From Nanobdellati archaeon (lineage in GTDB: Archaea; Nanobdellota; Nanobdellia; Woesearchaeales; GCA-2686295): a stretch of DNA of 63,221 nt. The stretch is taken from assembly GCA_014384375.1 (NCBI GenBank), contig JACNFY010000020.1:1-63221 (forward strand). Direction: 5' to 3'. The translations under genes and the position numbers were made by a program. The notes beneath the pieces are model-generated. The model saw nothing but the letters and a program-made list of their open reading frames with translations. It did no database searches and was not told the origin of the DNA. This document shows positions 13,808-28,947 of the stretch, in pieces. Positions within the stretch are counted from its first letter, which is position 1, and every line of letters begins with the position of its first letter.

Positions 13808-13823
13808 GTAGAGAAAAAGTTTA

Positions 13824-15161: not shown

Positions 15162-15366
15162 TTAAATTTGAAATAATTTAATTATTTAAAAAAGTTTACA
15201 TTAAAATTTTATGTTTTTTATAATATTTATTTTGCTTAATTAAAAAAACTTCAAAATATTACATACAAGAATTTTTTTGGATTTATTGTTGATAAAAAAA
15301 TAAAGATTTCAGAAAACAGAGATTTCTTCATAAAATTATTTAAACAATAATAATTAACACATTCTT

Positions 15367-17655
15367 ATGAGGGGTTTTTTGAGGAAACATTACTTGCTTA
15401 TCATAATACTTGTCATAGGAGTTTTCTTTCGATTATACAATCTTGGAACTTCTAATCTTCATACTGATGAAGCAGAGGTCTATCTAGCTTCTCAAAATAT
15501 TCTTAAGTCAGGTGTTCCTAAAGGTTTCCATAGAGTTCCTTTCTATGAGAACGCTTATCTCTTCGAATCAAACACTTCAATGTATGAGTTTGCTCCAACA
15601 AATTATTACAAGTCAGATTTAGTTTTGAAAAAAGGTTGGCTTCCGTATTATTTGACTGCATTCTTTTCTTTATTCGGAAAGAACGAGTTCTTGCTTAGAT
15701 TTCCTTTTGCTCTTATAGGAGTAATCTCTTTGTTCTTTTTTTTCCAACTAACAAACATATTGTTTAACAAAAGAACTGCTCTTATAGCTTTATTCTTTTA
15801 TGCTATCAGTCCAAGCTTATTATTCTATGAGAGAATGGTTAGGTATTACTCTCCTATGATTTTATTCATTATATTATCAATTTATTTCTATGTTAAGGCT
15901 TTCAAAGAAGATAATTGGAAAAACTATCTTTTAGGAGCATTTTCATTAGTTTTATTATTCTACACAAATGTGTTAATATTTTTGTCATTAGTAATAGTTC
16001 TTTTCATTTTCTGGTTTACTAAGAGGATTAAAATTAATAGAAATTTAATTTATTCAGATTTAATCATTATTGCTCTAATTCTTCCATGGATTTTATTTAG
16101 TGGTTTTTTATGGAACATTGCTAAAGAGCCAAGACAAATTACGGCACCTGTATTTCAATCAATCACAGCAGGTATTAACAATAACGGATCATTATACTTT
16201 TTCTTTTATTTAGGAATCATATTACTATTAATAAATATAATTTTTAAGAAAAAAATTCATAATAAAACTTTTCTTTGGAAGAATAACAGTTCAAATTATT
16301 TAATCTTAATCTATTTATTAGCTCTTATAATTATCCCCTACTTGCTAGCTCCTTCAAGTTCTTTTGAAGAAAAATTATTCTTATCTTTGATTCCCTTTTC
16401 ATTAATAATAATAGCTAAATTATTTGATTCTATTTTTAAGGTCTCAGAGAATAATATTTTCAAATATGTTGTAATAATTTTAATAGTTATTATAAGCATT
16501 GTTCACATTGAAACAGCTATAGGACGCAAAGGCCATAATATTATAACTTTGAAAGAAATAATAAATATTGATAGAAATGAATTATATAATGATATTGAAG
16601 AAGTTATAAAAGAACAAACTTCTGGCAATCCATTGATACTAACAACTTCTGAACAATTTCCTTTGATGTTCTACACAGATTATTCTGCTCAAACAATCTG
16701 GCCTGTTAGAGAAGAGTTTATTAACAACTATGATGAAGAACTTGTCATTATTGAGACTGGTTTTGTTGAAGGAACATGTAATTTATTCTATCGATATGTA
16801 AATCCTGCTGTGAGATGTAATAACAACAAGAACTATCTCGACAGAATCAATGAGTGCAAGGCTTTTGCAATGGATGAGACAACAAACCTGTATTTCTGCA
16901 AGAAAAGAAAAAAATTCATAGGCGGTGGTCTTGGCTTGTTTTTCCCAGACTTTCCAGAGAATCAACCGCCTGACTTTATCTGGGACTTAGAACCTTTCCA
17001 AGTTGCGGTAAATGTCAAGAATCTTGGAGAGAGTAATGTGGATAAATTGAAAATTATTTTTATCCAAGATTTTGGTGGAAGAGAGTTTGATACTGAAAAG
17101 AGCGAATTCTTGTTTAACAAAAAAATAGCTGGCAGAAAAAAAGTCTCTGGTGAAGTCATAACAAGCGAGGAATTCTTCGATTTAGGTAATGTTACTTTTA
17201 ATCATAAGCTTCCTTTAAAGCTAAGATACATCAATGCTAGTGTCAAGCTCTGCTATCCATACATAACTATGCTTAGAATTAACATATGTAATGATTCTCT
17301 GAATATTTGCAACTATGATGTTTCAGGAGGTCCTATGCAGATTAACAGTGTTTCCTATGATGAATTAAACTTTAACTTTTCAATATATAACTCTGCTGAG
17401 GGCTTTCTTGGAAATTTTGAGAATTGCCAAGAAGATAATATGACGAAAGAAATCAAAGTTGAATCTGATTTTTTCAAATGCGAAAAACTAAAAGACGAGT
17501 TTAGATGCCAAGCAGATGTTTTAAAGATTAGAAAGGACGATTATTATCTGATAAGCATCAACTATGACTACCAGCAGGAGTTCAAGAAAGGTCTTCTTCT
17601 AAGGAGCAAGGAGCGGAACAAGTATGACTATGAAAATTTTTACAAAAAAGAATAG
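15367..17655 (+). CDS. GT-C fold membrane glycosyltransferase (ArnT/PMT_2-like) with a ~250-aa extracytoplasmic C-terminal domain
   Basis: About 12 predicted TM helices. Acidic first-loop motif HTDEAEVY. C-terminal soluble Cys-containing domain with a CARDB-like strand pattern (FQVAVNVKNLGES). Confidence 0.65.
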   Translation: MRGFLRKHYLLIIILVIGVFFRLYNLGTSNLHTDEAEVYLASQNILKSGVPKGFHRVPFYENAYLFESNTSMYEFAPTNYYKSDLVLKKGWLPYYLTAFFSLFGKNEFLLRFPFALIGVISLFFFFQLTNILFNKRTALIALFFYAISPSLLFYERMVRYYSPMILFIILSIYFYVKAFKEDNWKNYLLGAFSLVLLFYTNVLIFLSLVIVLFIFWFTKRIKINRNLIYSDLIIIALILPWILFSGFLWNIAKEPRQITAPVFQSITAGINNNGSLYFFFYLGIILLLINIIFKKKIHNKTFLWKNNSSNYLILIYLLALIIIPYLLAPSSSFEEKLFLSLIPFSLIIIAKLFDSIFKVSENNIFKYVVIILIVIISIVHIETAIGRKGHNIITLKEIINIDRNELYNDIEEVIKEQTSGNPLILTTSEQFPLMFYTDYSAQTIWPVREEFINNYDEELVIIETGFVEGTCNLFYRYVNPAVRCNNNKNYLDRINECKAFAMDETTNLYFCKKRKKFIGGGLGLFFPDFPENQPPDFIWDLEPFQVAVNVKNLGESNVDKLKIIFIQDFGGREFDTEKSEFLFNKKIAGRKKVSGEVITSEEFFDLGNVTFNHKLPLKLRYINASVKLCYPYITMLRINICNDSLNICNYDVSGGPMQINSVSYDELNFNFSIYNSAEGFLGNFENCQEDNMTKEIKVESDFFKCEKLKDEFRCQADVLKIRKDDYYLISINYDYQQEFKKGLLLRSKERNKYDYENFYKKE

Positions 17656-18401: not shown

Positions 18402-18458
18402 TCATATCACCCCTTGTATTTTTGTTGTTTCTTTCTTTATTATAAAGTTTTTGTTTAA

Positions 18459-18703
18459 ATGAAAAAATATAAATAGTATACTTACAATGTAAGTATCAAT
18501 CAAGAAGAGAAACTATTTCTATGAAAAAACAAAAAATATAAATATAATACTTACAATGTAAGTATCAATCAAGAAGAGAAACTATTTCTATGAAAAAACA
18601 AAAAATATAAATATAATACTTACAATGTAAGTATCAATCAAGAAGAGAAACTATTTCTATGAAAAAACAAAAAATATAAATATAATACTTACATTGTAAG
18701 TAT
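18459..18703. repeat. Tandem repeat, 69-bp unit, about 3.6 copies, each with a 19-bp perfect palindrome ATACTTACA-N-TGTAAGTAT
   Basis: Units at 18459-18520 (62 bp), 18521-18589, 18590-18658 and 18659-18703 (truncated). Palindromes at 18478-18496, 18547-18565, 18616-18634 and 18685-18703. Each unit also has an AAAATATAAATATAAT TATA-like tract. Confidence 0.9.
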
Positions 18704-18852
18704 TAGACTTTTTGTGCTAGGGCAGTAAACTGAGACAGAAAAAGCAGAAACAGGACTACAGAAACAAATCTAGCACTCGTAAGACTATTCTCATACCATC
18801 ATTTATTCTTAAAGACAGAACACTTGCAGTCCTCGAATCAATAACAGAATAC

Positions 18853-19185
18853 TTGAAAGAGGAAAAAGAGCTAAGCTATCACGAGATAGCAGAAATTCTA
18901 AACAGGGATGACAGAACAATCTGGACAGTTTACAACAGAGCGAAAAACAAGAGAAAAACAGCTAGGGCGGTCTCAGTTTCTAAAACCCCCAAGATAAGTT
19001 TACCTAGCACAATTTTTAGAGACCGCTCTGTCGCTGTTTTAGAAGCAGTTGTTGAATTCTTGAAAGAAGTCAAGGAAATGACGTATCACGAGATAGCTGA
19101 AGCTCTAAACAGAGATGACAGGACTATATGGACTGTTTACTACAGAGCCAAAAAGAAAAGGAGGCAGAATGAAAGAGCTGAATAA
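18853..19185 (+). CDS. Tandem-duplicated helix-turn-helix protein (sigma-70 region 4 / LuxR-like HTH, two copies)
   Basis: Two copies of (L/M)(S/T)YHEIAE.LNRDDRTIWTVY.RAK.KR. The reading frame is open back to 18721 and encodes the missing first helix of copy 1 (IPSFILKDRTLAVLESITEYL), but there is no ATG/GTG/TTG before the TTG at 18853. Confidence 0.6.
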   Translation: MKEEKELSYHEIAEILNRDDRTIWTVYNRAKNKRKTARAVSVSKTPKISLPSTIFRDRSVAVLEAVVEFLKEVKEMTYHEIAEALNRDDRTIWTVYYRAKKKRRQNERAE

Positions 19186-22100
19186 AGTAATTAGGAAGCT
19201 TGAACTTGAACTGAAGCTCTTACATAGCTCAAAGTCTGTCTTACTAAGAGAGAGAAGAAGGAGGAAGATAAGCAAAGAAGATTATGAATTCCATAAGAGA
19301 ATAAGAGAAGATACTGAGACAAAAGCAAAATACAGGAAAGAGATAGAACAAAGATTAGCAGAAGCAAAAGTAAAACTAAGAGAAGAAAGAGAAAAGCTAA
19401 GATACAGAGATGAAAGAAGAGCAGGAATAGGATTAGCAGCAATAATTGTGTTGTTGCTAAGCTTGACTGTCTTAAGTAACTATGAAGGAATCACTGGATA
19501 CTTAACATTTACCAGAGAGCAAACAATAACAGAGACAATAAACAAGACCTTCACAGAGAATATAACGTTAGAACTGAACTTCACAAACGCAACCTCTCTC
19601 AGAATAAGCGGAGATATCATAGGCAGAGGAAGGGCAAGAGTGCTGCTTGATATAGACGGCACACTCTTCACAGTAATGGATGAATTCACAACCATTAAAG
19701 AGCCTACAAACCTAATAACAGGTCTAGTAATAGGTGAAGATGAAGAAAACATTAGTGAAGAAAATATAACAATAGAAGAAGAAATAGTTGAAAACATAAC
19801 TATTGATGAGAACATCACTATAGAAGAAAACATAACAACACTTGAGGTGTTGAACATTAGCGAAGCTAATGTAACAATTGAAGAGAATGTCACAGAAAAC
19901 ATCACAATAGAAAATACAACCATAACACCAGAAAATGTAACTATAGAAGAAAACATCACAGAAGAAATAAATGTAACACCAGAAGAGAATGTTAGTGAGA
20001 ATATAAGTGAGGATATCAATATAACAATAAATGTCACAGAAAACATAACTAAAGACATCAATGTGACACAGAATATAACAGAAAATGTAACACCGGAAAT
20101 AAACATAACACTAGAAGAGAACATAACAATAAATGTAACTCCAGAAATAAATATTACCGAGAACATAACAGAGGAAATCAATGTAACAATAAATATCACA
20201 GAAAACATAACAGTAGAAGAGAATATAACAATCAATATAACTCCAGAAATAAATATTACCGAGAACATCACAGAAGTATTCTCATTCACAGATGAATGTA
20301 TGGAGACATGTCTGCTTGAAATACCAGCTGGAAGATTAGTAATAAAACTAGAAAATGTTGAATTAAAAATAGATAATATAACATACAAGAAAGAGATAGA
20401 TAACAAGCCGCCAATACAAACTAAAGAAATAGAAAACGTCACATTCTTCAATAAATACTCATTAAACGCTTCAGAATACTTCAAAGACCCAGAAGGAGAA
20501 ATACTAATCTTTGATGTAAAAGAAGTTCCAGAGATAAAAGCAACTATAGAAAATAGTATAATAACATTCACAACCAACAAGAGCGGAATCTACGAGACAT
20601 TCATATACGTCACAGATGGAACAAGCTTGGTCAAGAGTAATGTGTTCTCACTAAGAGTAGGAAGCGTAGAAAACATAACAGTAAACATAACTCCAAAGCT
20701 AGAAGAAAATATAACACAGCTACCTGCAGTGATAGGACAACCAGTCAAGTGGAGAAAAGTAGTGAGAGTATTAGAACCAACTAATAAATTAATCGTGAAA
20801 ATAACAGAAGAGGCATATAACATCCGAGTAATAGAAGGGGAAACAGATAAAGAGATAGCAAGAGAAAAACTAAGTGTTGTGGAAAATAATACAAGGAAGA
20901 AACTAGAACAATATGAAACAGAGAAAGAAATGGAGAAAATAAGCGAAGAGATAGAAAAAGAGAAAGATACTACAAAAATCCAAGAACTTGAAAACGAACT
21001 CAAGAAACTAGAGGAAAAGAGAACATCACTAATAACAGGAGTAGTAATACTAGAACAGAAAGAACCCGGAATACTAACTAAGTTACTTGAGAAAACATCT
21101 AGCTATGTACAAACAGCAACCATAACAGGAAGAGTTATACAAGAAGTACCAGAAGCGACCATAGAAGAAGAGATTGAGGAGGAAACAGTAGAAGAAATAG
21201 AGATTGAAGAGGAAGAAGAAGAGGAAAAAGTAGAAACACAAGAAGACGAAGTAGACGATAAAGTTGAAGACAAAGTAAAGAAAGAGAAGAAAAAAGAAAA
21301 GAAAGAAAAAAAGTCTAAAGAGAAAAAAGAAGATAAAGAGGAAGAAGAGGAACCAGACGAGGAAGAAGAAACACCTGAAACAAACATAACAGAAGATTTC
21401 AACATCACACCAGAAATAAACGTCACAATCAACATAACAGAAAACATCACCACAAATGCAACACCAGAAATGAATGTTAGTGAAAACATAACAATAAATG
21501 TCACAGAAAACATAACTAAAGACATCAATGAGAGCATCAATGTAACACAGAATATAACAGAAAATGTAACACTGGAAATAAACATAACACTAGAAGAGAA
21601 TATAACAATAAATATCACACTAGTGAAAAACATAACAGAAAAAATAAACCTGAGCGAAAATATAACAACAAACATAACAGAATATACTAACATAACAATA
21701 AACATAACACCAGAAACAAACATAACAGAGAATATTACAATAGAGATAAATGTAACTGAGAATGTCACACCAATAATTAATGTCACAGAAAATATCACAA
21801 TAGAAAATATAACCATAACACCAGAAAATGTAACTATAGAAGAAAACATCACAGAAGAAATAAACATAACTGCAGAAAATGTTAGCTTAATAATAGAGCA
21901 CAATGCAACAGATTATATAATAGAATACGAGACAAGTACACCTTACATAATAGAAGAAGAAATAAACGTTTACAAGAAAATAGTTACAATAACAGGAATC
22001 CTACCTTACGAGAGAGTATTAGCATTCACAAACATAATACCATCACCAGAAGAAAATATTGGATTATACTGGATAAGGAACGGAACAAAGACAAGATTTG

Positions 22101-25100
22101 AGAATGTCACGTATGTAGACACAGATAATGACAGATTAATAGACAGGCTTGAATGGATAGTACCACACCTAAGCAACCAGACATTCGAAATAACCATAAC
22201 AGTGCTGAACGCTAAGAGTTATCCAATGGTTGGCGGCTTCTGGACAGTACAGCTAAACACAACAGGACAGGCAGACTTAGAAGTCATACCAATCAACTTA
22301 ACAACATTCGTGAACGAATCAATACCAAAATACAACGGAGAGGATGACTTAGAATTCGAAGAGTTCTTATGCGGAGATACACCAGTAACAGATCTATGGA
22401 TAAGCACAACAGAAGAATGTATAAATAACACACTAGAAACTGATGATTCAACATACTGCTACATTGAAGAAAATAAGACTTTCGTCAACTATACAGAGCT
22501 ACAACAGACTAATCTGTCAATCAACGTAACATCATTCAAGATATATGACTACGAGTGTGAGAACATCAGCTACTGGACAGATACAGTAAGAACATCAGGA
22601 GCACACTACATACTATTTACATTTGGACCAGATAATGCAACCGCAGAGAACTGGGCTGTTAAGAACGCGACCTCAAAGACACTTAACGCAACAGTAAGCA
22701 TCAGGAGACCAAGTGGAACAATGACATCAATCCAAGGAGCATATATGTTGTTGAACCACACAACTGAAGACACTCAGAAATGGCATAACACAACATGGGT
22801 CCATAATTACACCACAGATTGTCAAGAAGAAGGAAACTACGAAGTATATGTAGAACTTATGAGTCTTGGTAACTCAGGAGCAGAGAAAGACAGAACTGGA
22901 ATAGCTGAAGCAATAACCTACTGGATTGATAGTTGCATAATAGCAGGAGCAGGTAATATAAATTGTACAGTACATGCAAAGAGTAATAGTTCTGATAGCA
23001 CGTGGAAAGTGTTTGGAGGAAGATTAGAACTACTGAATGGTTCATCTAGCAGAGCTGTTTGTAACATAACAAGCGTAGGCGGAGATGCAGATGCATACTG
23101 GACTGCAGACGGACAAGACACATGTTCAGGAAGTGAGTGCGGACAGTGGATAGAGTTCTACCACAATGTAAGCAGCACTGATGAGGATGAAACAACCTTC
23201 ACAATCACATGTGATGACGGGTCAGATGACAACAGTGTTGTGCTCTTGAATTTAAACGAAACCTGCGGCCCAAGCATCTGCGGAAATGCAACAATATCTC
23301 AAGGAGGATTTGACGCATGTAACAACCCAACATGCTCAGACAACTTCACATACATTGGCAATGATACAGTGGAAAGTTTAGGAGGATTTGACTTAATGAC
23401 ATATGACATTGGAATACTTGACACATGGGGATGGGGTACAGTTAGCACCTACAATATTGATTGGGATTCTGATCAAAAAGACTGTGACTGCTATGTTGGA
23501 AGCACCAACTGTAACAGCGGAAGCTGCTATAATACAACAGGAAACATAATCGGTTTCACAGATGGAGGATCCAATTACAACGCGAGTTGTTGTGGTGATG
23601 ACTCAAGTGAGTATTACAACGAAACAGGATACACAAACCTTGAAAGCGTACCAACAATAAGTGCAGCTTGCTGTAATTCAACTACTAGCTGTGTATCAGC
23701 TAGCACATGTTATGCAAACACTACAAGCATAGCAAGCATAGACTCAGACTCAGACACAGATTATTGCATAGAAGGAATATGGTATGACTGTGGAAGCGAT
23801 TCTGACTGTTCAAGCGGACAGTTCTGTAACTCAAGCGACTGTGAAGGATCAGAGATAAATATTACATTTGAGAGTCCGACACCTGCACATGACTCTATAC
23901 AAATAAACAACCAAGTGACAATTAATGTCTCTGTAAGCTCGTTAGGAAGCAATGTAGACGCTTGTATCTTAGAATGGAATGGAGTTAACGAGACAATGGA
24001 CAGACAAGGTAGCGGAACAAGCGTGACATGTAACACAACAAAAACAACAACAGATGGAACAGTATACACATACAAGGTTTTTGCTAACAACACCGTTGGA
24101 TTATGGAGTAGCAGCACTACTAGGAACTTCACAGAGAATAGCGTACCAAGTATAAGCAGTATATCATTAACCACTGAAACAGGTAATAATTTAACGACAG
24201 AAACCTTAAATTGCTCATTTACAATCTCTGATTCAGAGAACACTAGCTTGTATGCATACTACAAATGGTACAATGGAACAAACTTAAAAGATAGTGGAGG
24301 AGTTAGTATGACAAGCGGAGTGGAGAACTCCATACTTCTAGGTTCAGGAAACACGACAAAAGGCGAAACCTGGTATTGCGAGATAACTCCTTATGATGGA
24401 TTTGAAAATGGAACGGCTCAGAACACCTCATTAACTATACTTAACTCCAACCCATCAGTCACACTCACAGCACCAACAAATGACACTGTCTTGACGCAGT
24501 ACAGCAACAGGACGCCAACATTTACCTGGAGTGCTAGCGATAACGACTCAATAGATACCTTGAACTACACAATCTGGATATATGAAGACTCTGCATTAAC
24601 AAGTCTGAACAGGAGTAATTACACACAAAGCATGATATTCATACCATCCTCTGACTTAGGACTTGATATGCCTTACTGGTGGATCGTTGAGGTTTATGAT
24701 GGCTCAAGCAGAGTTAACAGCACTGTATGGAACTTTACAATACAATCCTACAAAGCAATAAATTTAACTACTTCAACTGTTGACTTTGGAAACATGCTTC
24801 CAAATGTTAACAAGGATACTGAGAACAACGCAACTCCGTTCAAGATTGAAAACATTGGAAACATATTCGTAAACCTAACAATATATGCAAACACCACCTT
24901 GTGGACAAATGCTGCTATTAACACAAGTTATTACAGATATAGAGCAGATGTTGAGGAATCAGGCGCTTTCAATACAACTAATTCACAAACGACTTGGAAG
25001 AACATGGATAATGTCTCAACTGATTTGCTTAAAGAGTTAAACTTCAGTGTATCAGCAGACGAGGCACAGATAGATATCAATATAACAGTACCTGACAAAG

Positions 25101-25147
25101 AACCACCCGGAACAAAATCATCGCAGATAATTGTAACAGCTGAATAA
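19169..25147 (+). CDS. Giant (about 1990 aa) type-II membrane-anchored surface protein saturated with N-glycosylation sequons
   Basis: ATG at 19169 lies 5 nt after AAGGAGG (preferred over the alternative start at 19115). Basic coiled-coil N-terminus, one TM (GIGLAAIIVLLLSLTVL), two NIT/NVT repeat arrays, an acidic/Lys block, a Cys-rich region (CCGDDSSEYY ...) and Ig-like C-terminal domains. Confidence 0.85.
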   Translation: MKELNKVIRKLELELKLLHSSKSVLLRERRRRKISKEDYEFHKRIREDTETKAKYRKEIEQRLAEAKVKLREEREKLRYRDERRAGIGLAAIIVLLLSLTVLSNYEGITGYLTFTREQTITETINKTFTENITLELNFTNATSLRISGDIIGRGRARVLLDIDGTLFTVMDEFTTIKEPTNLITGLVIGEDEENISEENITIEEEIVENITIDENITIEENITTLEVLNISEANVTIEENVTENITIENTTITPENVTIEENITEEINVTPEENVSENISEDINITINVTENITKDINVTQNITENVTPEINITLEENITINVTPEINITENITEEINVTINITENITVEENITINITPEINITENITEVFSFTDECMETCLLEIPAGRLVIKLENVELKIDNITYKKEIDNKPPIQTKEIENVTFFNKYSLNASEYFKDPEGEILIFDVKEVPEIKATIENSIITFTTNKSGIYETFIYVTDGTSLVKSNVFSLRVGSVENITVNITPKLEENITQLPAVIGQPVKWRKVVRVLEPTNKLIVKITEEAYNIRVIEGETDKEIAREKLSVVENNTRKKLEQYETEKEMEKISEEIEKEKDTTKIQELENELKKLEEKRTSLITGVVILEQKEPGILTKLLEKTSSYVQTATITGRVIQEVPEATIEEEIEEETVEEIEIEEEEEEEKVETQEDEVDDKVEDKVKKEKKKEKKEKKSKEKKEDKEEEEEPDEEEETPETNITEDFNITPEINVTINITENITTNATPEMNVSENITINVTENITKDINESINVTQNITENVTLEINITLEENITINITLVKNITEKINLSENITTNITEYTNITINITPETNITENITIEINVTENVTPIINVTENITIENITITPENVTIEENITEEINITAENVSLIIEHNATDYIIEYETSTPYIIEEEINVYKKIVTITGILPYERVLAFTNIIPSPEENIGLYWIRNGTKTRFENVTYVDTDNDRLIDRLEWIVPHLSNQTFEITITVLNAKSYPMVGGFWTVQLNTTGQADLEVIPINLTTFVNESIPKYNGEDDLEFEEFLCGDTPVTDLWISTTEECINNTLETDDSTYCYIEENKTFVNYTELQQTNLSINVTSFKIYDYECENISYWTDTVRTSGAHYILFTFGPDNATAENWAVKNATSKTLNATVSIRRPSGTMTSIQGAYMLLNHTTEDTQKWHNTTWVHNYTTDCQEEGNYEVYVELMSLGNSGAEKDRTGIAEAITYWIDSCIIAGAGNINCTVHAKSNSSDSTWKVFGGRLELLNGSSSRAVCNITSVGGDADAYWTADGQDTCSGSECGQWIEFYHNVSSTDEDETTFTITCDDGSDDNSVVLLNLNETCGPSICGNATISQGGFDACNNPTCSDNFTYIGNDTVESLGGFDLMTYDIGILDTWGWGTVSTYNIDWDSDQKDCDCYVGSTNCNSGSCYNTTGNIIGFTDGGSNYNASCCGDDSSEYYNETGYTNLESVPTISAACCNSTTSCVSASTCYANTTSIASIDSDSDTDYCIEGIWYDCGSDSDCSSGQFCNSSDCEGSEINITFESPTPAHDSIQINNQVTINVSVSSLGSNVDACILEWNGVNETMDRQGSGTSVTCNTTKTTTDGTVYTYKVFANNTVGLWSSSTTRNFTENSVPSISSISLTTETGNNLTTETLNCSFTISDSENTSLYAYYKWYNGTNLKDSGGVSMTSGVENSILLGSGNTTKGETWYCEITPYDGFENGTAQNTSLTILNSNPSVTLTAPTNDTVLTQYSNRTPTFTWSASDNDSIDTLNYTIWIYEDSALTSLNRSNYTQSMIFIPSSDLGLDMPYWWIVEVYDGSSRVNSTVWNFTIQSYKAINLTTSTVDFGNMLPNVNKDTENNATPFKIENIGNIFVNLTIYANTTLWTNAAINTSYYRYRADVEESGAFNTTNSQTTWKNMDNVSTDLLKELNFSVSADEAQIDINITVPDKEPPGTKSSQIIVTAE
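19742..20277 (+). repeat. Intragenic sequon array 1 (degenerate ENIT/INVT units)
   Basis: About 33 N-x-S/T sequons by hand count in about 175 residues. Degenerate 12-18 nt DNA periodicity (gaaaacataaca / gaaataaatgtaaca). Confidence 0.85.
21377..21910 (+). repeat. Intragenic sequon array 2, a partial duplicate of array 1
   Basis: Blocks 21488-21620 and 21782-21864 are near-identical at the DNA level to 20021-20145 and 19889-19971. Confidence 0.85.
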
Positions 25148-25149: not shown

Positions 25150-26256
25150 ATGAAGAGAGAACTACTGGTAATAATGGCAATCCTGCTAGTTCACAGTGTC
25201 TGGGGAATAGGCGTCGGACCTGCCAGTACAAAAATAGACTTTGAACCAAATCTTACAAGGCAATACTCAATAACTGTTTACAACACAGAACACAAGAGCT
25301 TTGAAGCAACTCTAGAGTTAACAGGGGAACTTGAAAAGTTTTTGCTCTTAGAAAGCAAAGCAGTTTCATTCACAGAAGAAGATAATCAAAAAAGTATCTT
25401 CTTCAACGTCTCCTTCCCAAGAGACATACCACCAGGCTCTTACACAGGACAAATTGTAATCACTGAAAAGCCATTGGACAGGCAAGGCACAATAATAGCT
25501 TCACTTGGAGTCACACATGAAATAAGCCTTAAAGTTCCCACTCATGGAAAATACATAAAGGAATCAATTGAAAAGAGGAACAAATCAATACATATCAGCA
25601 TAAAGAACATCGGCTTGAAAGAGATAGAAAAACTAGAAGTGTTTAACAAAATATATGATAGCACAAAAAACTTTTCATACTATCACTCAAAAAACAACTT
25701 CTTGTCTGACGAAGTGTTTAATTTTTCCTTAGTGCTAACTCAACCTATAGGAATCTACACTCACAAAGTTTCAATAAGATACGATGAATTAACAAAAAAC
25801 ATAACCAAGACATTAATAATTGGAGAAATTCAGATTTTAATAACTGACCTGAAAATAAAAGATTTCAACCTTGGAGAAATAGCGGCTATCGATATTTCTC
25901 TATCCAGCAACTGGAATCAAGACTTAAAAAACGTTTATGTAGAAATAGATGTATTTGACCAAGAAGAACTTATTGATACCATAAAAGGACCAACACTCAC
26001 AATAAATAATATGAAAACTACAACCTTGTTCTGGGATACAAAAGAACTGTTAGAAGGAGAGTACAAACTAGTTGTGAAAGTCTTCCATAACAACAAAATA
26101 ATCTCAGAAAAAGAATACTCAACCAAATTAACAGAGAAGAAAGCTGTTATAAGAAAAGAAGTTAAGCTCTATCCAATCATAATATTATCAATCACCATAG
26201 TCATCCTGGGACTTATAATATTAGTCCTAAAAATAAAAAGAAGAAAAAAAACTTAA
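25150..26256 (+). CDS. Secreted beta-sandwich repeat protein with a C-terminal TM anchor and basic tail
   Basis: Signal peptide (LLVIMAILLVHSVWG), C-terminal TM plus KIKRRKKT. Paralog of the 27351 gene. Start lies 2 nt after the giant gene stop. Confidence 0.6.
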   Translation: MKRELLVIMAILLVHSVWGIGVGPASTKIDFEPNLTRQYSITVYNTEHKSFEATLELTGELEKFLLLESKAVSFTEEDNQKSIFFNVSFPRDIPPGSYTGQIVITEKPLDRQGTIIASLGVTHEISLKVPTHGKYIKESIEKRNKSIHISIKNIGLKEIEKLEVFNKIYDSTKNFSYYHSKNNFLSDEVFNFSLVLTQPIGIYTHKVSIRYDELTKNITKTLIIGEIQILITDLKIKDFNLGEIAAIDISLSSNWNQDLKNVYVEIDVFDQEELIDTIKGPTLTINNMKTTTLFWDTKELLEGEYKLVVKVFHNNKIISEKEYSTKLTEKKAVIRKEVKLYPIIILSITIVILGLIILVLKIKRRKKT

Positions 26257-26268
26257 AAAAAAGAAAGA

Positions 26269-26276
26269 TTTATATA
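26269..26276 (+). promoter_or_regulatory. TATA box (TTTATATA)
   Basis: Upstream of the 26317 gene, which also has an AAGGTG Shine-Dalgarno sequence. Confidence 0.35.
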
Positions 26277-26316
26277 CTACAACAAGCAAGAAGATAAATA
26301 TAAAGGTGTATTAGCT

Positions 26317-26541
26317 ATGAAAGAGGATATATCCAAAAATACTATCTTAGTTCTCGTTGTATTAACAGTTGTTATTTCACTTCTTGGAACTTGGACTGTT
26401 ATCAATGAAGTGAACAATATAAAAGTTACATCACCTGAAGTAAGCAGAGAAGCACAAAGTAGTGGAAAAATCATGCTCACAATTAACCCACCTGACGAAG
26501 TTGAAACAACTGGAAAGGTGGTATTAACTAAGACTCAATAG
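26317..26541 (+). CDS. Small (74 aa) secreted protein with an N-terminal hydrophobic helix ending LLGTWTV
   Basis: SD AAGGTG 9 nt upstream. N-terminus MKEDISKNTILVLVVLTVVISLLGTWTV. Short beta-strand-like C-terminus. Confidence 0.45.
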   Translation: MKEDISKNTILVLVVLTVVISLLGTWTVINEVNNIKVTSPEVSREAQSSGKIMLTINPPDEVETTGKVVLTKTQ

Positions 26542-26555
26542 GAGGATGTCAAAAA

Positions 26556-27284
26556 ATGGAAGAAACAAACAAAACATTAGCGCTTTTATTGGTCGCTGCA
26601 ATAGTAGTTTCGTTAGGAGGAACTATTGTTAGCTTAAACAAATTAGGACAAATCCAGTTAGGAGCACTAACAGGAAGAGCAGTAGACACATCTCCAGGTT
26701 ATGTCCAGCTAAACGTTACATCAGAGACAACCGTTACATTCACAAGGAACACTATAAATTTCGGGAATGGTTATGTTAACTCTACATGCAACAACTGTAC
26801 CATGTATACAAATTCATCAACATCAGGTACAAATTACACAAACCCCCAGTGCTGCATAAATGAATGGGGAAACCCTGGTAGTGGTAAAGAGGCAGATACT
26901 GGTTTGTGGATACAAAATCAAGGTAACACCAACTTGACACTTAACTTGGATTTCTCTGATACTGCAGCAACCTTCATCGGAGGAGCAAGCCCCTCCCCTG
27001 AGTTCCAATGGATAGTAATAAATGACTCTAGTGCTAGAACCTGTACTGGAACCTGCAGCGCTCCAGGAGATGACACTAGTGGCGCTTGTGCTTTTATTAA
27101 TAACTATGGCCTCCAATGGAACAATGCAAATACAAGCGATCCTCAAATATGTGCTGACAACTATGGATTCAAGGCCATAACAACTCAGGACGAGTTTGTT
27201 ATTGATGCAAGGGTGTTGGTTCCAAGAACAGCAGCAGCTGCCCAAAAAACAGCCACATTAACAATTACAGGAACTTCTGCATAA
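26556..27284 (+). CDS. Secreted Asn/Thr/Cys-rich protein (242 aa) with an N-terminal helix ending SLGGTIVS
   Basis: SD AGGAGG upstream. N-terminus MEETNKTLALLLVAAIVVSLGGTIVS. Many sequons. Ends ATLTITGTSA. Confidence 0.55.
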   Translation: MEETNKTLALLLVAAIVVSLGGTIVSLNKLGQIQLGALTGRAVDTSPGYVQLNVTSETTVTFTRNTINFGNGYVNSTCNNCTMYTNSSTSGTNYTNPQCCINEWGNPGSGKEADTGLWIQNQGNTNLTLNLDFSDTAATFIGGASPSPEFQWIVINDSSARTCTGTCSAPGDDTSGACAFINNYGLQWNNANTSDPQICADNYGFKAITTQDEFVIDARVLVPRTAAAAQKTATLTITGTSA

Positions 27285-27319
27285 TTAATTTTTTCTTTTC
27301 TAATTTTGTTTTAAAAAAA

Positions 27320-27327
27320 TTTATATA
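27320..27327 (+). promoter_or_regulatory. TATA box (TTTATATA), leaderless geometry
   Basis: Centre is 27-28 nt upstream of the ATG at 27351. Confidence 0.45.
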
Positions 27328-27350
27328 GAAACAGTCATAAAGTGTTAGAG

Positions 27351-28484
27351 ATGAGAAAAACAATATTTTTTTTACTTATGATTATCCTATCAACAAGTGC
27401 CTATAGCATAGGTCTCTCAAGCGGTCGCAGCTATCCTAAGCCAATATTATTTGAGCCAGGATTAGTGTTCTCAGAAGACCTTGTCATGTCACAATATAAG
27501 TATGAGTCAGAACCCTATATTGAAGGAGACCTTGTAGAGTACGCCATCATAACTAACCATAAAGACTATGGTGACTATCAAACTTTTACAGTGATTCTTA
27601 CTCTCCCTGAAAAGCTGGATAGGGCAGGAATACACACATTGTACATAGGAGCAAGAGAGCTCCCCCCAACAGAAGGAGGTATTGTCGGACTAACAAGAGT
27701 TCGAAAACTTAGACAGTTTTTGGTTCTTTACGATGAAAAAATAGCAAAGTTCTACGAATTATTAACTCCTAATGTTAATGAAGGCCAAACAACAAAGTTC
27801 TCATTCAAGGCAGAGAGCCTCTCAAAACAGAAAATAACTAGCATAGAAGTTGATATAAAAATTTATGATTTTAACAGAAAACTAATAAAAACTCTCAATA
27901 TTGAAAAGTTTGAGTTGGCGTCTGCAGAGAAAAAAACTCTTAGTGTTGAATTTGACTCTCAAGGACTAACATCAGGACAATACTTCGCAGAGGCAGAGAT
28001 ACATTGGGAAAATGAAATCACAAAATTGGAAAGCAGCTTTAAAATCGGAGCTTTAAACCTGCAAATATTGAATTTTACAAGGAACTTCACTGCAAATCAG
28101 ATAAATAAGATAAACATCGAGGTAGAAAGTAAGTGGAATGGAAAAATAAATGATGTTTATGCTCAGCTATTCATTGATGATGAGGAGCAAACATCAACCC
28201 AAACATACAACTTTGGTCCTTTTGAGAGGAAAGAGATAACTGGATATCTGGATTTAAGCTATGTTGAAGGAGGAATGCACACTTTAAGAATAATACTAAA
28301 CTATGGAAACGAGAAAACTGTTGTTGAAGATGATATTAATATTGTTGGAGAAGGAAAAAAGAAACCAAGAGTAAGAAAACCAATAACCATCACGCTTAAC
28401 AGCACTGAGATAATGATGCTTCTAGTGATAATAGTCTTAATACTGGCAATAGTTGTTATTCTTCAACAGAGAAAGAAAAAATGA
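27351..28484 (+). CDS. Secreted beta-sandwich repeat protein with a C-terminal TM anchor; paralog of 25150-26256
   Basis: Signal peptide (IFFLLMIILSTSAYS), C-terminal TM plus QQRKKK. ATG at 27351 fits the TATA spacing better than the GTG at 27342. Confidence 0.6.
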   Translation: MRKTIFFLLMIILSTSAYSIGLSSGRSYPKPILFEPGLVFSEDLVMSQYKYESEPYIEGDLVEYAIITNHKDYGDYQTFTVILTLPEKLDRAGIHTLYIGARELPPTEGGIVGLTRVRKLRQFLVLYDEKIAKFYELLTPNVNEGQTTKFSFKAESLSKQKITSIEVDIKIYDFNRKLIKTLNIEKFELASAEKKTLSVEFDSQGLTSGQYFAEAEIHWENEITKLESSFKIGALNLQILNFTRNFTANQINKINIEVESKWNGKINDVYAQLFIDDEEQTSTQTYNFGPFERKEITGYLDLSYVEGGMHTLRIILNYGNEKTVVEDDINIVGEGKKKPRVRKPITITLNSTEIMMLLVIIVLILAIVVILQQRKKK

Positions 28485-28897: not shown

Positions 28898-28914
28898 CTA
28901 GAAAAAACACAATT

Positions 28915-28922
28915 TTTATATA
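28915..28922 (+). promoter_or_regulatory. TATA box (TTTATATA), leaderless geometry
   Basis: Centre is about 29 nt upstream of the ATG at 28948. Confidence 0.45.
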
Positions 28923-28947
28923 GAAAAATCCTGATTATGATTGTTAA

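What the first reader, a model, noticed from the sequence alone, without database searches (positions are those of the whole stretch)
19169..25147. Giant type-II anchored protein with extreme N-x-S/T sequon density
After a basic coiled-coil cytoplasmic head and one TM helix, the ectodomain contains two arrays made almost entirely of ENIT/INVT units. I count about 33 sequons in about 175 residues for array 1. Sequons continue at high density through the Cys-rich and Ig-like regions. Such a protein would be essentially a glycan brush. Its position beside a glycosyltransferase/rSAM island suggests a dedicated, heavily tailored glycoprotein, for example for host attachment in an episymbiotic archaeon.
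Basis: partly seen in the sequence, partly recalled or inferred. Interest (0 to 1): 0.65.

Follow-up and report, generated by a model that had tools for sequence, protein, structure and literature searches.

The report
Giant sequon-packed archaeal surface glycoprotein
This is an intact 1,992-residue membrane-anchored surface protein of a tiny (DPANN-type) archaeon whose outer part carries N-glycosylation motifs far above chance, including two stretches with one motif every 4-6 residues; the trait is shared by its whole family of giant surface proteins, and the gene sits behind a conserved small DNA-binding partner gene and a repeated palindromic site.

Summary
ORF 19169..25147 is intact and encodes a basic helical head, one TM helix and a 1,889-aa ectodomain. 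It has 143 N-x-S/T sequons, against 39 +/- 5 expected from shuffling (z about 19). Array 1 holds 33 sequons in 180 aa and array 2 holds 33 in 170 aa. Outside the arrays the sequon is still 2.6-3.5x enriched, whereas reversed or shifted motifs and cytoplasmic enzymes are not.

All 94 other homologues found are 1.2-3.4 kaa proteins. Those that carry a source name are almost all named Woesearchaeota, Nanoarchaeota or Pacearchaeota. All are sequon-rich, so the trait is lineage-wide and not unique to this gene. AF2 gives array 1 as disordered (array 2 was not modelled) and the modelled remainder as mostly Ig/FnIII-like beta-sandwiches.

Most likely this is a heavily N-glycosylated, adhesin-like surface fibre with two "N-linked mucin-like" brush segments. 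The rSAM/GT/GT-C island and six downstream surface genes are syntenic in four or five other genomes but absent from one orthologue lineage. "Dedicated tailoring" is therefore only partly supported.

One result is new. A tandem sigma-70-region-4-like HTH gene, preceded by an array of CTTACA-N-TGTAAG palindromes, precedes the giant gene in nearly all loci. Distant members of this HTH family of more than 1,000 proteins also flank giant genes.

Glycosylation itself and host binding remain untested.

The parts
18457..18703 (.). 69-bp direct repeat (about 3.5 copies). Each unit carries the 19-bp palindrome ATACTTACA-A/T-TGTAAGTAT, at 18478, 18547, 18616 and 18685. This is an operator-like array upstream of the HTH-giant operon.
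   Evidence: 4 sites in the window against 0.1 expected, and none elsewhere. The core CTTACA-N-TGTAAG occurs 2-4 times, roughly 160-600 bp upstream of the giant gene, in L004, L005, L006, L010, L011, L013 and L014. Diverged CTTACAT-type repeats occur in L001, L012, L016 and L017.
18721..19185 (+). Gene for a tandem sigma-70-region-4-like HTH protein. It has two repeats of IPSxIFxDRxxAVLExxxEYLKExKxxxYHEIAxxLNRDDRTIWTVYxRAKxKR. Its stop overlaps the start of the giant gene by 17 nt. The first repeat has no ATG/GTG/TTG start; the listed ORF begins at TTG 18853, and candidate starts are CTG 18730 or ATT 18787.
   Evidence: Pfam Sigma70_r4_2 E 6e-12. Frame analysis. Orthologues lie directly upstream of the giant gene in L001-3, L005, L006 and L010-L014, and downstream of it in L004. 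The family has 1,072 members at E<=1e-5.
19169..25147 (+). Giant surface protein gene: 1,992 aa, 223.5 kDa polypeptide, pI 4.2, 143 sequons.
19169..19420 (+). Cytoplasmic head, aa 1-84. It is basic (pI 10.2) and consists of four helices, the last running into the TM segment.
   Evidence: AF2 pLDDT about 90 and helices 2-18, 22-30, 36-47 and 49-103. Charge count. Conserved in orthologues.
19421..19477 (+). Single TM helix (signal anchor), aa 85-103, followed by the conserved juxtamembrane motif N-Y-E-G-I-T-G-Y (aa 104-111).
   Evidence: Hydropathy. An [ILVMF]TG motif lies within 25 aa after the TM in 53 of 88 family members, against 8% expected.
19514..19693 (+). First ectodomain beta module, aa 116-175.
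   Evidence: AF2 pLDDT 84-90, five strands.
19739..20278 (+). Sequon array 1, aa 191-370. It has 33 sequons (NIT 19, NVT 9, NIS 3, NTT 1, NVS 1), spaced mostly 4 or 6 residues apart. It holds 45 D+E against 1 K+R.
   Evidence: AF2 pLDDT 23-30 with no secondary structure. Orthologues have 24-46 sequons at the same position with different unit types.
20279..20773 (+). Module starting with the FxDECxETC motif, followed by two Ig/cadherin-like beta-sandwiches, aa 371-535.
   Evidence: AF2 pLDDT 70-92 apart from a dip at aa 500-508. Weak Foldseek hits to dystroglycan, protocadherin and SraP Ig-like domains.
20846..21373 (+). Glu/Lys-rich segment that looks coiled-coil-like (aa 560-640, with two LITG/ITG motifs), then a poly-Glu/poly-Lys low-complexity linker (aa 655-735).
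   Evidence: Sequence read directly. TRF short repeats.
21374..21883 (+). Sequon array 2, aa 736-905. It has 33-34 sequons depending on the exact bounds, spaced 4 or 6 residues apart, with 29 D+E against 3 K+R.
21884..22648 (+). Conserved beta module ('IIEHNA..EYET..LSNQTFEITITVLN'), aa 906-1160. It is the part most widely shared with other giant DPANN proteins.
   Evidence: phmmer domain map against the 94 other homologues. AF2 pLDDT mostly 72-87.
23060..23842 (+). Cys-rich region, aa 1298-1558 (23 of the 36 Cys).
   Evidence: Mostly low AF2 confidence.
23843..25144 (+). C-terminal string of Ig/FnIII-like beta-sandwich domains, aa 1559-1992, with 30 sequons. There is no C-terminal anchor.
   Evidence: AF2 pLDDT about 75-90 for aa 1555-1865. 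Foldseek hits to contactin, gp130 and CD45 FnIII strings, an RTX adhesin and the H. volcanii S-layer 7ptp.
911..17655 (.). Upstream glycan-type island. It holds about ten radical-SAM genes (SPASM and B12 types), a GT2 (10542..11207), an rSAM-GT9 fusion (8616..10532) and a PMT_2 GT-C membrane protein (15367..17655).
   Evidence: Pfam. The PMT_2 protein has a sub-threshold hit to Agl23, TIGR03663 (E 6e-11, 42 bits against a cutoff of 126). Synteny with the giant gene in L004, L005/L013 and L014.
25150..35246 (+). Downstream cluster of six co-oriented surface proteins. Their features:
- 25150 and 27342: signal peptide plus C-terminal TM with a basic tail.
- 26317: small.
- 26556: TM plus 'LTG'.
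- 28481: no features assigned.
- 28948: bitopic, Cys-rich.
- 31260..35246: 1,328 aa, type I, 96 sequons.
   Evidence: Conserved order in L004, L005/L013, L006, L010 and L014.

Best explanation
The gene encodes a giant cell-surface glycoprotein of a DPANN-type archaeon, close to proteins named Woesearchaeota or Nanoarchaeota.

Shown:
- It is inserted with its basic helical head in the cytoplasm and one N-terminal TM helix as its only predicted anchor.
- The 1,889-aa acidic ectodomain is a chain of beta-sandwich modules (Ig/cadherin/FnIII-like) plus a Cys-rich region.
- The chain is interrupted by two acidic arrays of about 175 aa, the one that was modelled being predicted as disordered, in which every Asn sits in an N-(I/V)-T/S sequon every 4-6 residues.
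- Sequons are also 2.6-3.5x over-represented in the folded parts.

Inferred:
- After Sec-dependent insertion, the organism's AglB-type oligosaccharyltransferase loads lipid-linked glycans onto these sequons.
- The arrays become bottle-brush, protease-resistant, extended spacers. They would be an N-linked functional counterpart of mucin domains.
- These spacers hold the distal Cys-rich and Ig-like modules far from the membrane.
- The glycan coat on the folded modules shields and stabilises them.
- The distal modules act as an adhesin or contact fibre, towards a host cell or a surface, and contribute to a glycocalyx.

Also shown: expression is tied to a translationally coupled tandem-HTH protein and a conserved upstream array of palindromic sites. 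I infer that this is a dedicated transcriptional control.
For: - ORF integrity and independent assemblies.
- Sequon excess against shuffles and against the window proteome.
- Motif-specific and direction-specific enrichment with a Thr preference, absent from cytoplasmic enzymes.
- In the conserved C-terminal half, 54% of sequon positions are kept as sequons in orthologues of about 55% identity. Nineteen sequons are kept in at least 6 of 7. Totals stay at 45-90 per orthologue.
- Arrays at the same two positions in orthologues differ in unit type and length, yet nearly all their Asn lie in sequons (for example 46/46 and 49/52; the lowest values are 39/48 and 15/23 in P0006), with almost no K/R. 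Density and acidity are therefore what is conserved, not sequence.
- DNA repeats in the arrays are short and degenerate (65-90% matches), and Asn, Ile/Val and Thr/Ser codons are mixed. The arrays are therefore not a recent perfect expansion.
- AF2 shows a confident helical head, array 1 with pLDDT 23-30 and no secondary structure, and confident beta modules.
- Foldseek gives Ig/FnIII/cadherin strings, adhesins and an archaeal S-layer protein.
- All 94 other homologues are giant and sequon-rich, most have a single N-terminal TM, and the named ones are almost all DPANN.
- AglB exists in DPANN according to the literature cited in PMC8993221.
- Giant Ig/LamG surface proteins of DPANN are regarded as host-contact factors (PMC10266531).
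Against: - No glycan has been observed, and no AglB/STT3 gene lies in the 63 kb window or in about 6 kb beyond its 3' end.
- Whether an archaeal OST can fill sequons spaced only 4 residues apart is unknown.
- A 31% Ile+Val content is unusual for a disordered region and could favour some beta structure that AF2 misses with a 10-sequence alignment.
- There is no evidence on the binding partner or on expression. Only DNA runs were found.
- The conserved 'ITG' motif just after the TM fits a signal-peptidase -3/-1 pattern. The protein might be cut from its anchor, in which case 'type-II anchored' would be wrong.
- Array length is not confirmed by long reads. The assemblies break there and show alternative joints between the two arrays.
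Confidence: 0.65

Rival explanations
1. The protein is an envelope or S-layer-type structural glycoprotein, or a passive glycocalyx and protective coat, and not an adhesin. The brush segments and glycan shield would mainly protect a wall-less small cell and set its surface charge.
For: The ectodomain is acidic (pI 4.1). The Foldseek list includes the H. volcanii S-layer protein 7ptp and Bacillus S-layer proteins. Heavy N-glycosylation is typical of archaeal S-layer proteins (PMC5744192 and PMC6098224, listed). The same sequon richness in every large surface protein of the lineage suggests a general envelope property.
Against: There is no sequence relation to any known S-layer family. It has an N-terminal signal anchor and a long flexible architecture, not a compact lattice-forming unit. 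The family is highly modular and variable, with LamG, beta-helix and other inserts in homologues, as is usual for adhesins. It has a dedicated regulator, which is not expected for a constitutive major envelope protein.
Confidence: 0.2
2. The giant protein is also, or mainly, a surface sensor. Its conserved cytoplasmic head would hold the co-encoded tandem sigma-4-like HTH protein at the membrane, an arrangement like sigma/anti-sigma pairs or membrane-tethered transcription factors. Ectodomain engagement or cleavage near the ITG motif would free the HTH protein to act on the CTTACA-N-TGTAAG sites.
For: - The HTH gene overlaps the giant gene's start in the window and lies directly upstream of it in L001-3, L005, L006 and L010-L014.
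- The head is conserved and confidently helical, about 84 aa, N-in, followed by one TM. This is the layout of anti-sigma factors.
- The palindromic repeat array upstream is conserved.
- Three of three distant family members lie next to giant genes of 4,250 aa, 12,558 aa and 1,641 aa.
- In P0084, P0092 and P0093 the same tandem HTH is fused to the C-terminus of a giant protein, behind a short TM and a polybasic stretch. It is therefore physically membrane-tethered.
Against: There is no direct evidence that head and HTH interact. The head matches no anti-sigma or other Pfam family. The HTH protein has two region-4-like domains and no region 2, and archaea do not use sigma factors. Simple autoregulation or activation of a long operon explains the adjacency equally well. 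In L004 the HTH gene lies after the giant gene.
Confidence: 0.15
3. The Thr-rich arrays are modified mainly by O-glycosylation on Thr, through the neighbouring PMT_2-type GT-C enzyme, and not by N-glycosylation.
For: A PMT_2 (protein O-mannosyltransferase-like) gene lies 1.5 kb upstream and stays syntenic in L004, L005/L013 and L014. The arrays are 18-21% Thr.
Against: Thr/Ser is enriched specifically at +2 of Asn. The N-x-x-[ST], N-[ST] and [ST]-x-N patterns are not enriched. Every Asn of array 1 and all but one of array 2 lie in a sequon. This pattern is explained by an Asn-directed OST and not by a Thr-directed enzyme. The PMT_2 protein's best curated match is the N-glycosylation-associated Agl23, although below cutoff. 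The orthologue in L001 lacks the PMT_2 neighbour.
Confidence: 0.08
4. The arrays are not glycosylated. They fold into a regular Asn/Thr-faced beta-solenoid, for example an ice-, mineral- or polysaccharide-binding surface, with Ile/Val in the core.
For: The alternation E-N-I-T-I-N-V-T puts N/T on one face and I/V on the other face of a strand. Thr/Asn ladders are known in ice-binding adhesins (from my own knowledge, not tested).
Against: - Unit length is irregular, a mix of 4, 5, 6, 7, 8 and 10, and differs between orthologues.
- Net charge is about -44 per 180 aa.
- AF2 gives pLDDT 23-30 with no strands.
- The enrichment continues in clearly globular domains and in unrelated surface proteins.
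Confidence: 0.04

Closest known systems
Giant surface proteins of DPANN archaea (LamG/PKD/Ig-rich proteins of Woesearchaeota and Pacearchaeota; SPEARE-type proteins of Nanohaloarchaeota; PMC10266531 and references therein)
   Same: Same lineage and size class. Membrane-anchored, with long strings of Ig-like modules, and many homologues carry LamG (PF13385) or beta-helix inserts. They are generally thought to mediate contact with host cells.
   Different: The window protein has no LamG, protease, ATPase or other Pfam domain. It uses an N-terminal signal anchor with a conserved helical head. The two poly-sequon arrays and the HTH/palindrome partner did not turn up in the four literature searches I ran, though none of them targeted the HTH/palindrome partner.
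Archaeal N-glycosylated S-layer and surface glycoproteins (for example Haloferax volcanii Csg, PDB 7ptp; Sulfolobus SlaA)
   Same: Extracellular, acidic, built of Ig-like beta-sandwiches, and substrates of the AglB pathway through N-x-S/T sequons. A Foldseek hit to 7ptp was found.
   Different: No sequence homology. From my own knowledge, sequon density here (7.2 per 100 aa overall, 18-20 per 100 aa in the arrays) is several-fold above those proteins. It has disordered arrays and an N-terminal anchor, and there is no evidence for lattice formation.
Mucin-like domains and serine-rich-repeat adhesins (alpha-dystroglycan, MUC-type PTS domains, SraP/GspB/Fap1)
   Same: It works alike. A densely glycosylated, extended, low-complexity spacer is set between folded Ig/cadherin-like modules and projects a binding region. 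Weak fold hits to dystroglycan and SraP modules were found.
   Different: The chemistry differs: Asn-linked sequons in a Glu/Ile/Asn/Thr composition (Pro about 3%, Ser about 2%) in place of O-linked Ser/Thr/Pro repeats. There is no accessory SecA2/Gtf system, and it is not homologous.
Viral glycan shields (HIV-1 Env)
   Same: Selection for a very high sequon density on an exposed protein. A compositional phmmer hit of array 1 to an Env construct was found (E 0.009).
   Different: No homology. The shield covers a folded trimer, whereas here a third of the sites lie in disordered arrays.
ECF sigma / anti-sigma operons and membrane-tethered transcription factors (ToxR/CadC type)
   Same: A small region-4-type HTH gene is translationally coupled to a gene for a type-II membrane protein with a helical cytoplasmic head of about 85 aa. 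A repeated cis element lies upstream. Fusions tether the HTH to the membrane in relatives.
   Different: The HTH protein has two region-4-like domains and no region 2. The head matches no anti-sigma family. Archaeal transcription does not use sigma factors. The interaction is untested.

Membership tests
AglB-dependent archaeal N-glycoprotein | The polypeptide is exported or exposed outside the cytoplasmic membrane. | tested here: met
   A single N-terminal hydrophobic segment (aa 85-103) with a strongly basic N-flank, and the rest of the protein acidic with 36 Cys. The same layout is seen in most of the 94 other homologues.
AglB-dependent archaeal N-glycoprotein | Asn-X-Ser/Thr (X not Pro) acceptor sequons under selection. 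| tested here: met
   143 sequons, z about 19. The enrichment is motif- and direction-specific. N-x-T is favoured over N-x-S. 54% of sequon positions are conserved in orthologues.
AglB-dependent archaeal N-glycoprotein | An AglB/STT3 oligosaccharyltransferase is encoded by the organism. | not testable with these tools
   No STT3 hit among the 50 window ORFs, nor in the roughly 6 kb that L007 adds beyond the window's 3' end. The rest of the genome is not available. AglB is reported for DPANN in general (PMC8993221, citing Nikolayev 2020).
AglB-dependent archaeal N-glycoprotein | Glycans are actually attached to the Asn residues. | not testable with these tools
   This needs glycoproteomics. Only DNA runs hold the sequence.
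Mucin / PTS domain | Pro/Thr/Ser-rich tandem repeats that are O-glycosylated. | tested here: not met
   The array composition is E 23%, I 23%, N 18%, T 18%, P 3%, S 2%. Every Thr/Ser of the repeat sits at +2 of an Asn. It is a functional analogy only.
Regular beta-solenoid / pentapeptide-type repeat | A constant repeat period giving a predicted stacked beta structure. | tested here: not met
   Sequon spacing is a mix of 4, 5, 6, 7, 8 and 10. TRF finds only short degenerate repeats. AF2 gives pLDDT 23-30 with no strands.
Archaeal S-layer protein | Membership of a known S-layer family, or evidence of lattice formation or high abundance. | tested here: inconclusive
   No Pfam, NCBIfam or PDB sequence match. 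Only generic Ig-string fold similarity including 7ptp. Abundance and lattice formation are not testable.
SPEARE-type giant proteins of Nanohaloarchaeota | A size of several thousand residues, with the protease/ATPase-type domains described for that family. | tested here: not met
   No Pfam domain at all in the 1,992 aa. No SPEARE-like protein is among the named homologues.
ECF sigma / anti-sigma pair | A sigma factor with regions 2 and 4, and a partner with a recognised anti-sigma domain. | tested here: not met
   The HTH protein matches only region 4, twice. The head of the giant protein matches no family. The operon layout resembles such pairs, but membership fails.

The most novel reading that the evidence does not exclude
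The giant glycoprotein and its translationally coupled tandem sigma-4-like HTH protein form a trans-envelope contact-sensing module of DPANN archaea. The conserved cytoplasmic head of the surface fibre would sequester the HTH protein; in some relatives the HTH is fused and membrane-tethered. Engagement or juxtamembrane cleavage at the conserved ITG motif would release it onto the conserved CTTACA-N-TGTAAG operator arrays that precede giant surface-protein genes. This would be an archaeal analogue of sigma/anti-sigma or Notch-like signalling, used to sense a host. Separately, the two arrays would be the first described 'N-linked mucin' domains.
Probability: 0.15. Interest if true: 0.8.

Novelty: new variant of a known kind. 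Interest (0 to 1): 0.5.

Why it matters
DPANN archaea are mostly uncultured, and many depend on contact with a host cell. Their giant surface proteins are the prime candidates for that contact, but they are annotated as 'hypothetical'.

This locus offers three things:
- A quantitative, controlled demonstration that these proteins are under selection for extreme N-glycosylation potential. It includes disordered poly-sequon segments that would behave like N-linked mucin domains, a design I could not find described.
- A conserved gene cluster: glycan-type enzymes, regulator, giant protein and six further surface proteins. It can be targeted in enrichment cultures.
- A concrete, testable regulatory handle. 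A family of more than 1,000 tandem-HTH proteins, with a conserved palindromic site, accompanies giant surface-protein genes across Woesearchaeota and Nanoarchaeota.

If the arrays are fully occupied, the protein would carry more glycan than polypeptide. It would also test how densely an archaeal oligosaccharyltransferase can work.

Tried and rejected
- Pfam, NCBIfam and PDB sequence searches of the giant protein and its parts gave nothing. The only hit was a compositional one to HIV Env.
- Foldseek gave only generic Ig/FnIII strings, so no specific function could be assigned.
- A look-up of the window's own giant protein in the contig index failed. Extending the window to look for AglB found none in about 6 kb.
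- I considered that the sequon excess is only a composition effect or a beta-strand alternation effect. I rejected this using shuffles and the reversed and shifted motif controls.
- I considered a recent tandem-repeat expansion. I rejected it because DNA repeats are short and degenerate and codons are mixed.
- I considered ORF disruption. I rejected it because four independent assemblies show no differences.
- I considered that the C-terminal HTH 'fusions' in relatives are extracellular or artefacts. Inspection showed a short TM plus a polybasic stretch before the HTH in P0084, P0092 and P0093. The 'TM' first seen in P0079 lies between the HTH repeats and is not real.
- A search with array 1 against 1.84 billion representatives gave only 51 hits. 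Among the 16 I inspected or already knew, the true relatives belong to the same family and the rest are low-complexity noise. It therefore says little about poly-sequon arrays of other unit types.
- The weak WxLIP_HBD hit of the 27342 protein (E 0.003, below cutoff) was not pursued.

Full report
**1. The observation**

The ORF listed at 19115..25147 is uninterrupted. GGAGG lies 4 nt upstream of it. Every orthologue begins at the equivalent Met, reading MKELNK, MEELSK or similar. The same GGAGGCAGAATG context is present in locus L005.

From 19169 the product is 1,992 aa, 223.5 kDa, pI 4.2. It contains 195 Asn, of which 143 (73%) start an N-x(not P)-S/T sequon. That is 7.18 sequons per 100 aa. 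Shuffling the residues gives 39.4 +/- 5.4, so z is about 19, and none of 2,000 shuffles reaches the observed count.

| Region | Sequons observed | Comparison |
|---|---|---|
| Array 2 (aa 736-905) | 33 | 34 Asn in total |
| Non-array middle (aa 371-735) | 8 | 2.2 expected |
| C-terminal 1,087 aa | 64 | 24 expected, z 9.6 |

The other 49 ORFs of the window average 1.22 sequons per 100 aa, with 18.5% of Asn in a sequon.

**2. Is it more than composition or strand alternation?**

I compared the sequon with related motifs after shuffling.

- In the non-array ectodomain, N-x-[ST] has an observed/expected ratio of 2.6 (aa 906-1992) and 3.5 (aa 104-190 plus 371-600).
- [ST]-x-N, N-[ST], N-x-x-[ST], D-x-[ST], Q-x-[ST] and N-x-[AG] lie between about 0.6 and 1.5 where the expected count is above 3.
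- N-x-T (3.4) is favoured over N-x-S (1.6). This matches the known preference of oligosaccharyltransferases (my own knowledge).
- Sixteen pooled cytoplasmic enzymes of the window have a ratio of 0.91.

The other condition, 'ORF split in read-level data', is also not met as far as it can be tested.

- The stretch is held at 72-99% of sampled words in eight metagenome runs from five studies.
- Contigs of four runs from four separate studies were laid on the ORF. Two tile it completely, one covers all but its first ~600 nt, and the low-depth fourth covers parts. None shows a substitution, indel or stop.
- The contigs break only inside the two arrays, and some contigs join array 1 to array 2.
- The arrays share 31-mers, so their exact length needs long reads.

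**3. Anatomy**

Hydropathy finds one TM segment, aa 85-103. The 84-aa head before it has 30 K+R against 18 D+E (pI 10.2). The 1,889 aa after it have pI 4.1 and 36 Cys. This gives an N-in, C-out topology.

AlphaFold2 on aa 1-560 (10-sequence alignment) gives:
- Four helices for the head with pLDDT about 90, the last running through the TM.
- A beta module at aa 116-175 (pLDDT 84-90).
- No secondary structure and pLDDT 23-30 for aa 177-367, which is array 1.
- Confident beta-sandwiches for aa 370-535.

AlphaFold2 on aa 906-1992 (15 sequences) gives:
- An all-beta protein.
- Confident modules at aa 925-1160 and about 1555-1865 (pLDDT mostly 72-90).
- Low confidence for most of the Cys-rich part.

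Foldseek returns strings of Ig/FnIII/cadherin-like domains. The hits include contactins, gp130, CD45, alpha-2-macroglobulins, an RTX adhesin, SraP, dystroglycan, protocadherin and the Haloferax S-layer protein 7ptp. No specific functional match emerges. Pfam, NCBIfam and PDB sequence searches give nothing.

The arrays are built of units such as ENIT, INVT, PEINIT and EEINVT.
- Sequon spacing is mostly 4 or 6 residues, with some 5, 7, 8 and 10.
- The x position is almost always Ile or Val.
- The arrays have 45 and 29 acidic residues against 1 and 3 basic residues.
- At the DNA level there are only short degenerate repeats (65-90% matches).
- Asn, Ile/Val and Thr/Ser codons are mixed.
- The arrays are therefore old and maintained at the protein level, not a recent expansion.

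**4. Relatives**

A search of 5.8 billion clustered proteins found 95 proteins including the query itself. All are 1.2-3.4 kaa. Those that carry a source name are almost all named Nanoarchaeota, Woesearchaeota, Pacearchaeota or 'archaeon'. Five species-representative genomes (three titled Nanoarchaeota or Woesearchaeota, two only 'archaeon') hold an orthologue.

Full-length orthologues (46-52% identity) share the whole architecture. Many add a LamG module that the window protein lacks.

Every one of the 94 other proteins is sequon-rich, at 2.4-8.3 per 100 aa with z 5-21. The window protein is near the top of that range. Most have a single N-terminal TM behind one of a few types of cytoplasmic head.

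In the orthologues the two arrays sit at the same positions.
- They use different units: spacings of 4, 6 or 8, and NIT, NIS, NTT or NET types.
- They hold 15-49 sequons each.
- In most, nearly every Asn lies in a sequon (46/46, 49/52, 24/24, 34/35); the lowest values are 39/48 and 15/23 in P0006. There are almost no basic residues.

In the alignable C-terminal half, 54% of the window's sequon positions are sequons in the orthologues, and 19 are kept in at least 6 of 7. At positions where the window has a non-sequon Asn, only 9% of orthologue residues form a sequon.

Scoring array 1 against 1.84 billion representatives gave only 51 hits. Among the 16 I inspected or already knew, the real relatives belong to this family and the rest are low-complexity matches.

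What is conserved is therefore the density of acceptor sites and the acidity. The trait belongs to the whole family of giant DPANN surface proteins. A second protein of the window shows it too: 31260..35246, type I, 1,328 aa, 96 sequons, z 12.

**5. Surroundings**

*Upstream.* This is a glycan-type island.
- About ten radical-SAM genes of SPASM and B12 types.
- A GT2.
- An rSAM-GT9 fusion.
- A 762-aa PMT_2 GT-C membrane protein.

The PMT_2 protein's best curated match is the N-glycosylation-associated Agl23, but far below cutoff (E 6e-11, 42 bits against 126). No STT3/AglB gene is in the window.

*Downstream.* Six co-oriented surface proteins follow.

*Synteny.* tblastn of all window proteins against the fetched loci gave these results.
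- The order rSAM genes, PMT_2, 159-aa Cys-rich protein, 101-aa lipoprotein-like ORF, HTH, giant gene, then the five to six downstream genes is kept in L004, L005/L013 and L014.
- The downstream set is also kept in L006 and L010.
- The P0006 lineage (L001-3) has the orthologue among housekeeping genes (Hjc, histone, tRNA-intron endonuclease, FEN1).
- L011 and L012 lack the island.

The link to the glycan island is therefore real but not obligatory. Because the sequon trait is general, a dedicated pathway is not required to explain it.

**6. The most conserved partner**

The 110-aa ORF 18853..19185 matches sigma-70 region 4 (E 6e-12). In fact it is the end of a tandem double HTH whose frame is open from 18721. 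It has no ATG/GTG/TTG before TTG 18853. The same holds in L005.

Its stop overlaps the start of the giant gene. An orthologue lies directly upstream of the giant gene in L001-3, L005, L006 and L010-L014, and just after it in L004.

Upstream of it lies a 69-bp repeat of about 3.5 copies. It carries four copies of the palindrome ATACTTACA-A/T-TGTAAGTAT, found nowhere else in the window (0.1 expected). The core CTTACA-N-TGTAAG occurs 2-4 times at the equivalent place in seven other loci and nowhere else in them. Diverged CTTACAT-type repeats occupy that place in L001, L012, L016 and L017. Such conservation of a non-coding element at about 50% protein identity argues for a binding site. The adjacent HTH protein is the obvious candidate, but that is an inference.

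The HTH family has 1,072 members at E<=1e-5, and those that carry a source name are named Nanoarchaeota, Woesearchaeota or 'archaeon'. I looked up three distant members on long contigs. One sits directly before a 4,250-aa gene, one directly before a 12,558-aa gene, and one directly after a 1,641-aa gene and before a surface-gene cluster.

In P0084, P0092 and P0093 the same tandem HTH is the C-terminus of the giant protein itself. It follows a short TM, a polybasic stretch and a helical linker.

**7. Mechanism**

*Best-supported reading (confidence 0.65).* The protein is a signal-anchored surface fibre that is heavily N-glycosylated by the general AglB pathway. AglB in DPANN rests on the literature cited in PMC8993221.
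- The two disordered acidic poly-sequon arrays act as bottle-brush spacers, an N-linked counterpart of mucin domains.
- The glycan coat on the Ig-like and Cys-rich modules shields them.
- The distal modules serve adhesion or contact. This is the role generally proposed for giant Ig/LamG proteins of DPANN (PMC10266531).

*Shown:* the ORF, the topology prediction, the sequon statistics and their specificity, conservation of density, disorder of array 1, the beta-sandwich modules, the synteny and the HTH/palindrome partner.

*Inferred:* actual glycosylation and occupancy, extension of the arrays, adhesion, and regulation by the HTH protein.

*Rivals:*
- A structural glycocalyx or S-layer-type role (0.2).
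- A sensor role in which the head holds the HTH protein, like an anti-sigma factor or a tethered transcription factor (0.15, not exclusive of the main reading).
- O-glycosylation by the PMT_2 enzyme (0.08).
- An unglycosylated Asn/Thr-faced solenoid (0.04).

*Caveat.* The motif [ILVMF]-T-G lies within 25 residues after the TM in 53 of 88 family members, against 8% expected. It fits a -3/-1 signal-peptidase pattern. The protein may therefore be released from its anchor.

**8. Comparison and novelty**

The protein works like a mucin-type or serine-rich-repeat adhesin, but with Asn-linked chemistry. It fails the compositional definition of a PTS domain.

It belongs to the known kind 'giant, glycosylated surface proteins of DPANN archaea', though not to any named family. 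It resembles archaeal S-layer glycoproteins in fold elements and pathway, but not in sequence, anchor or density. The operon layout resembles sigma/anti-sigma pairs but fails both defining domain tests.

I rate it a new variant of a known kind. The extreme sequon density is confirmed and clearly selected, yet it is a lineage-wide property and not a singular oddity. What I could not find described is the poly-sequon 'N-mucin' arrays and the conserved tandem-HTH and palindrome module that accompanies giant genes. Four literature searches found nothing relevant.

Interest is 0.5. The finding is solid and useful for an under-studied group, but its key functional claims remain untested.

Noticed in passing
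window 18457-18703: A 69-bp tandem repeat (about 3.5 copies) carries four copies of the 19-bp palindrome ATACTTACA-A/T-TGTAAGTAT. The core CTTACA-N-TGTAAG is conserved 2-4 times upstream of the orthologous gene in seven other loci. It looks like an operator array.
   Followed up: yes
window 18721-19185 (also L005 6990-7405): The tandem sigma-70-region-4-like HTH gene has an open, conserved first repeat but no ATG/GTG/TTG start before it, both here and in L005. It may use CTG or ATT, or be translated in some unusual way. The family has more than 1,000 members, and three of three distant members lie next to giant genes (4,250 aa, 12,558 aa, 1,641 aa).
   Followed up: partly
window 19484-19501 (aa 106-111 EGITGY); also aa 183-185, 620-622, 652-654 and 941-943; the 26556..27284 product aa 38-40: A conserved [ILVMF]-T-G motif lies just after the N-terminal TM in 53 of 88 giant homologues (8% expected), often as (K/R/N)-P-x-I-T-G-F/L. 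It recurs before each array. It is a possible signal-peptidase-type or other processing or sorting signal of this lineage.
   Followed up: partly
window 31260-35246: A second hyper-sequon surface protein: 1,328 aa, signal peptide plus C-terminal TM, 96 sequons (7.2 per 100 aa, z 12), with weak Big_9 and tandem-95-repeat hits. It is conserved downstream in L005.
   Followed up: partly
window 30990-31260: Two small tandem ORFs, MTNINIEISDDIHKQIKLKAVLEDLTIKDYIIKSLEKK.. and MTNINIKIPNELHKKIKIESVKREMTIKELIIKTLEEKAKE, look like ribbon-helix-helix proteins and lie directly upstream of the second hyper-sequon gene. L005 has 42- and 41-aa ORFs at the same place.
   Followed up: no
window 8616-10532: A single ORF fuses a radical-SAM domain to a GT9 (heptosyltransferase-family) glycosyltransferase domain. 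It is conserved at 62-65% identity next to the PMT_2 gene in L004, L005 and L013.
   Followed up: no
window 15367-17655: A 762-aa PMT_2 GT-C membrane protein has a Cys-containing C-terminal domain. It has a sub-threshold match to the N-glycosylation-associated Agl23 (TIGR03663, E 6e-11). It is syntenic with the giant gene in four loci.
   Followed up: partly
window 25150-28897: Two paralogous proteins of about 370 aa (25150 and 27342) each have a signal peptide, a C-terminal TM and a KKRRKK-type tail. One has a weak WxL-interacting-protein hit. They flank a 242-aa Cys- and sequon-rich protein, and small proteins of 74 aa and 138 aa accompany them. The set is conserved behind the giant gene in six loci and may form a surface complex.
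   Followed up: partly
window 19838/19912 joined to 21788/21424 (contigs of runs X3 and X8): Some assembly contigs join array 1 directly to array 2. One such junction would be an in-frame loss of about 649 codons. It could be a population variant, a paralogue or a graph artefact of shared 31-mers.
   Followed up: no
P0084, P0092, P0093 (C-terminal 200 aa): In some giant relatives the ectodomain ends in a short TM (for example WTIKVVTLLVAVIPA), a polybasic stretch, a helical linker and the same tandem HTH. This amounts to a membrane-tethered DNA-binding domain on a giant surface protein.
   Followed up: partly
window 18096-18401 (- strand): A 101-aa ORF has a lipobox-like signal (LILTSC). It is conserved divergently upstream of the HTH-giant operon in L004, L005, L011, L013 and L014.
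   Followed up: no
window 39447-39531: ARAGORN calls one tRNA-like gene with an undetermined four-base anticodon (tgta). It is the only tRNA call in 63 kb.
   Followed up: no
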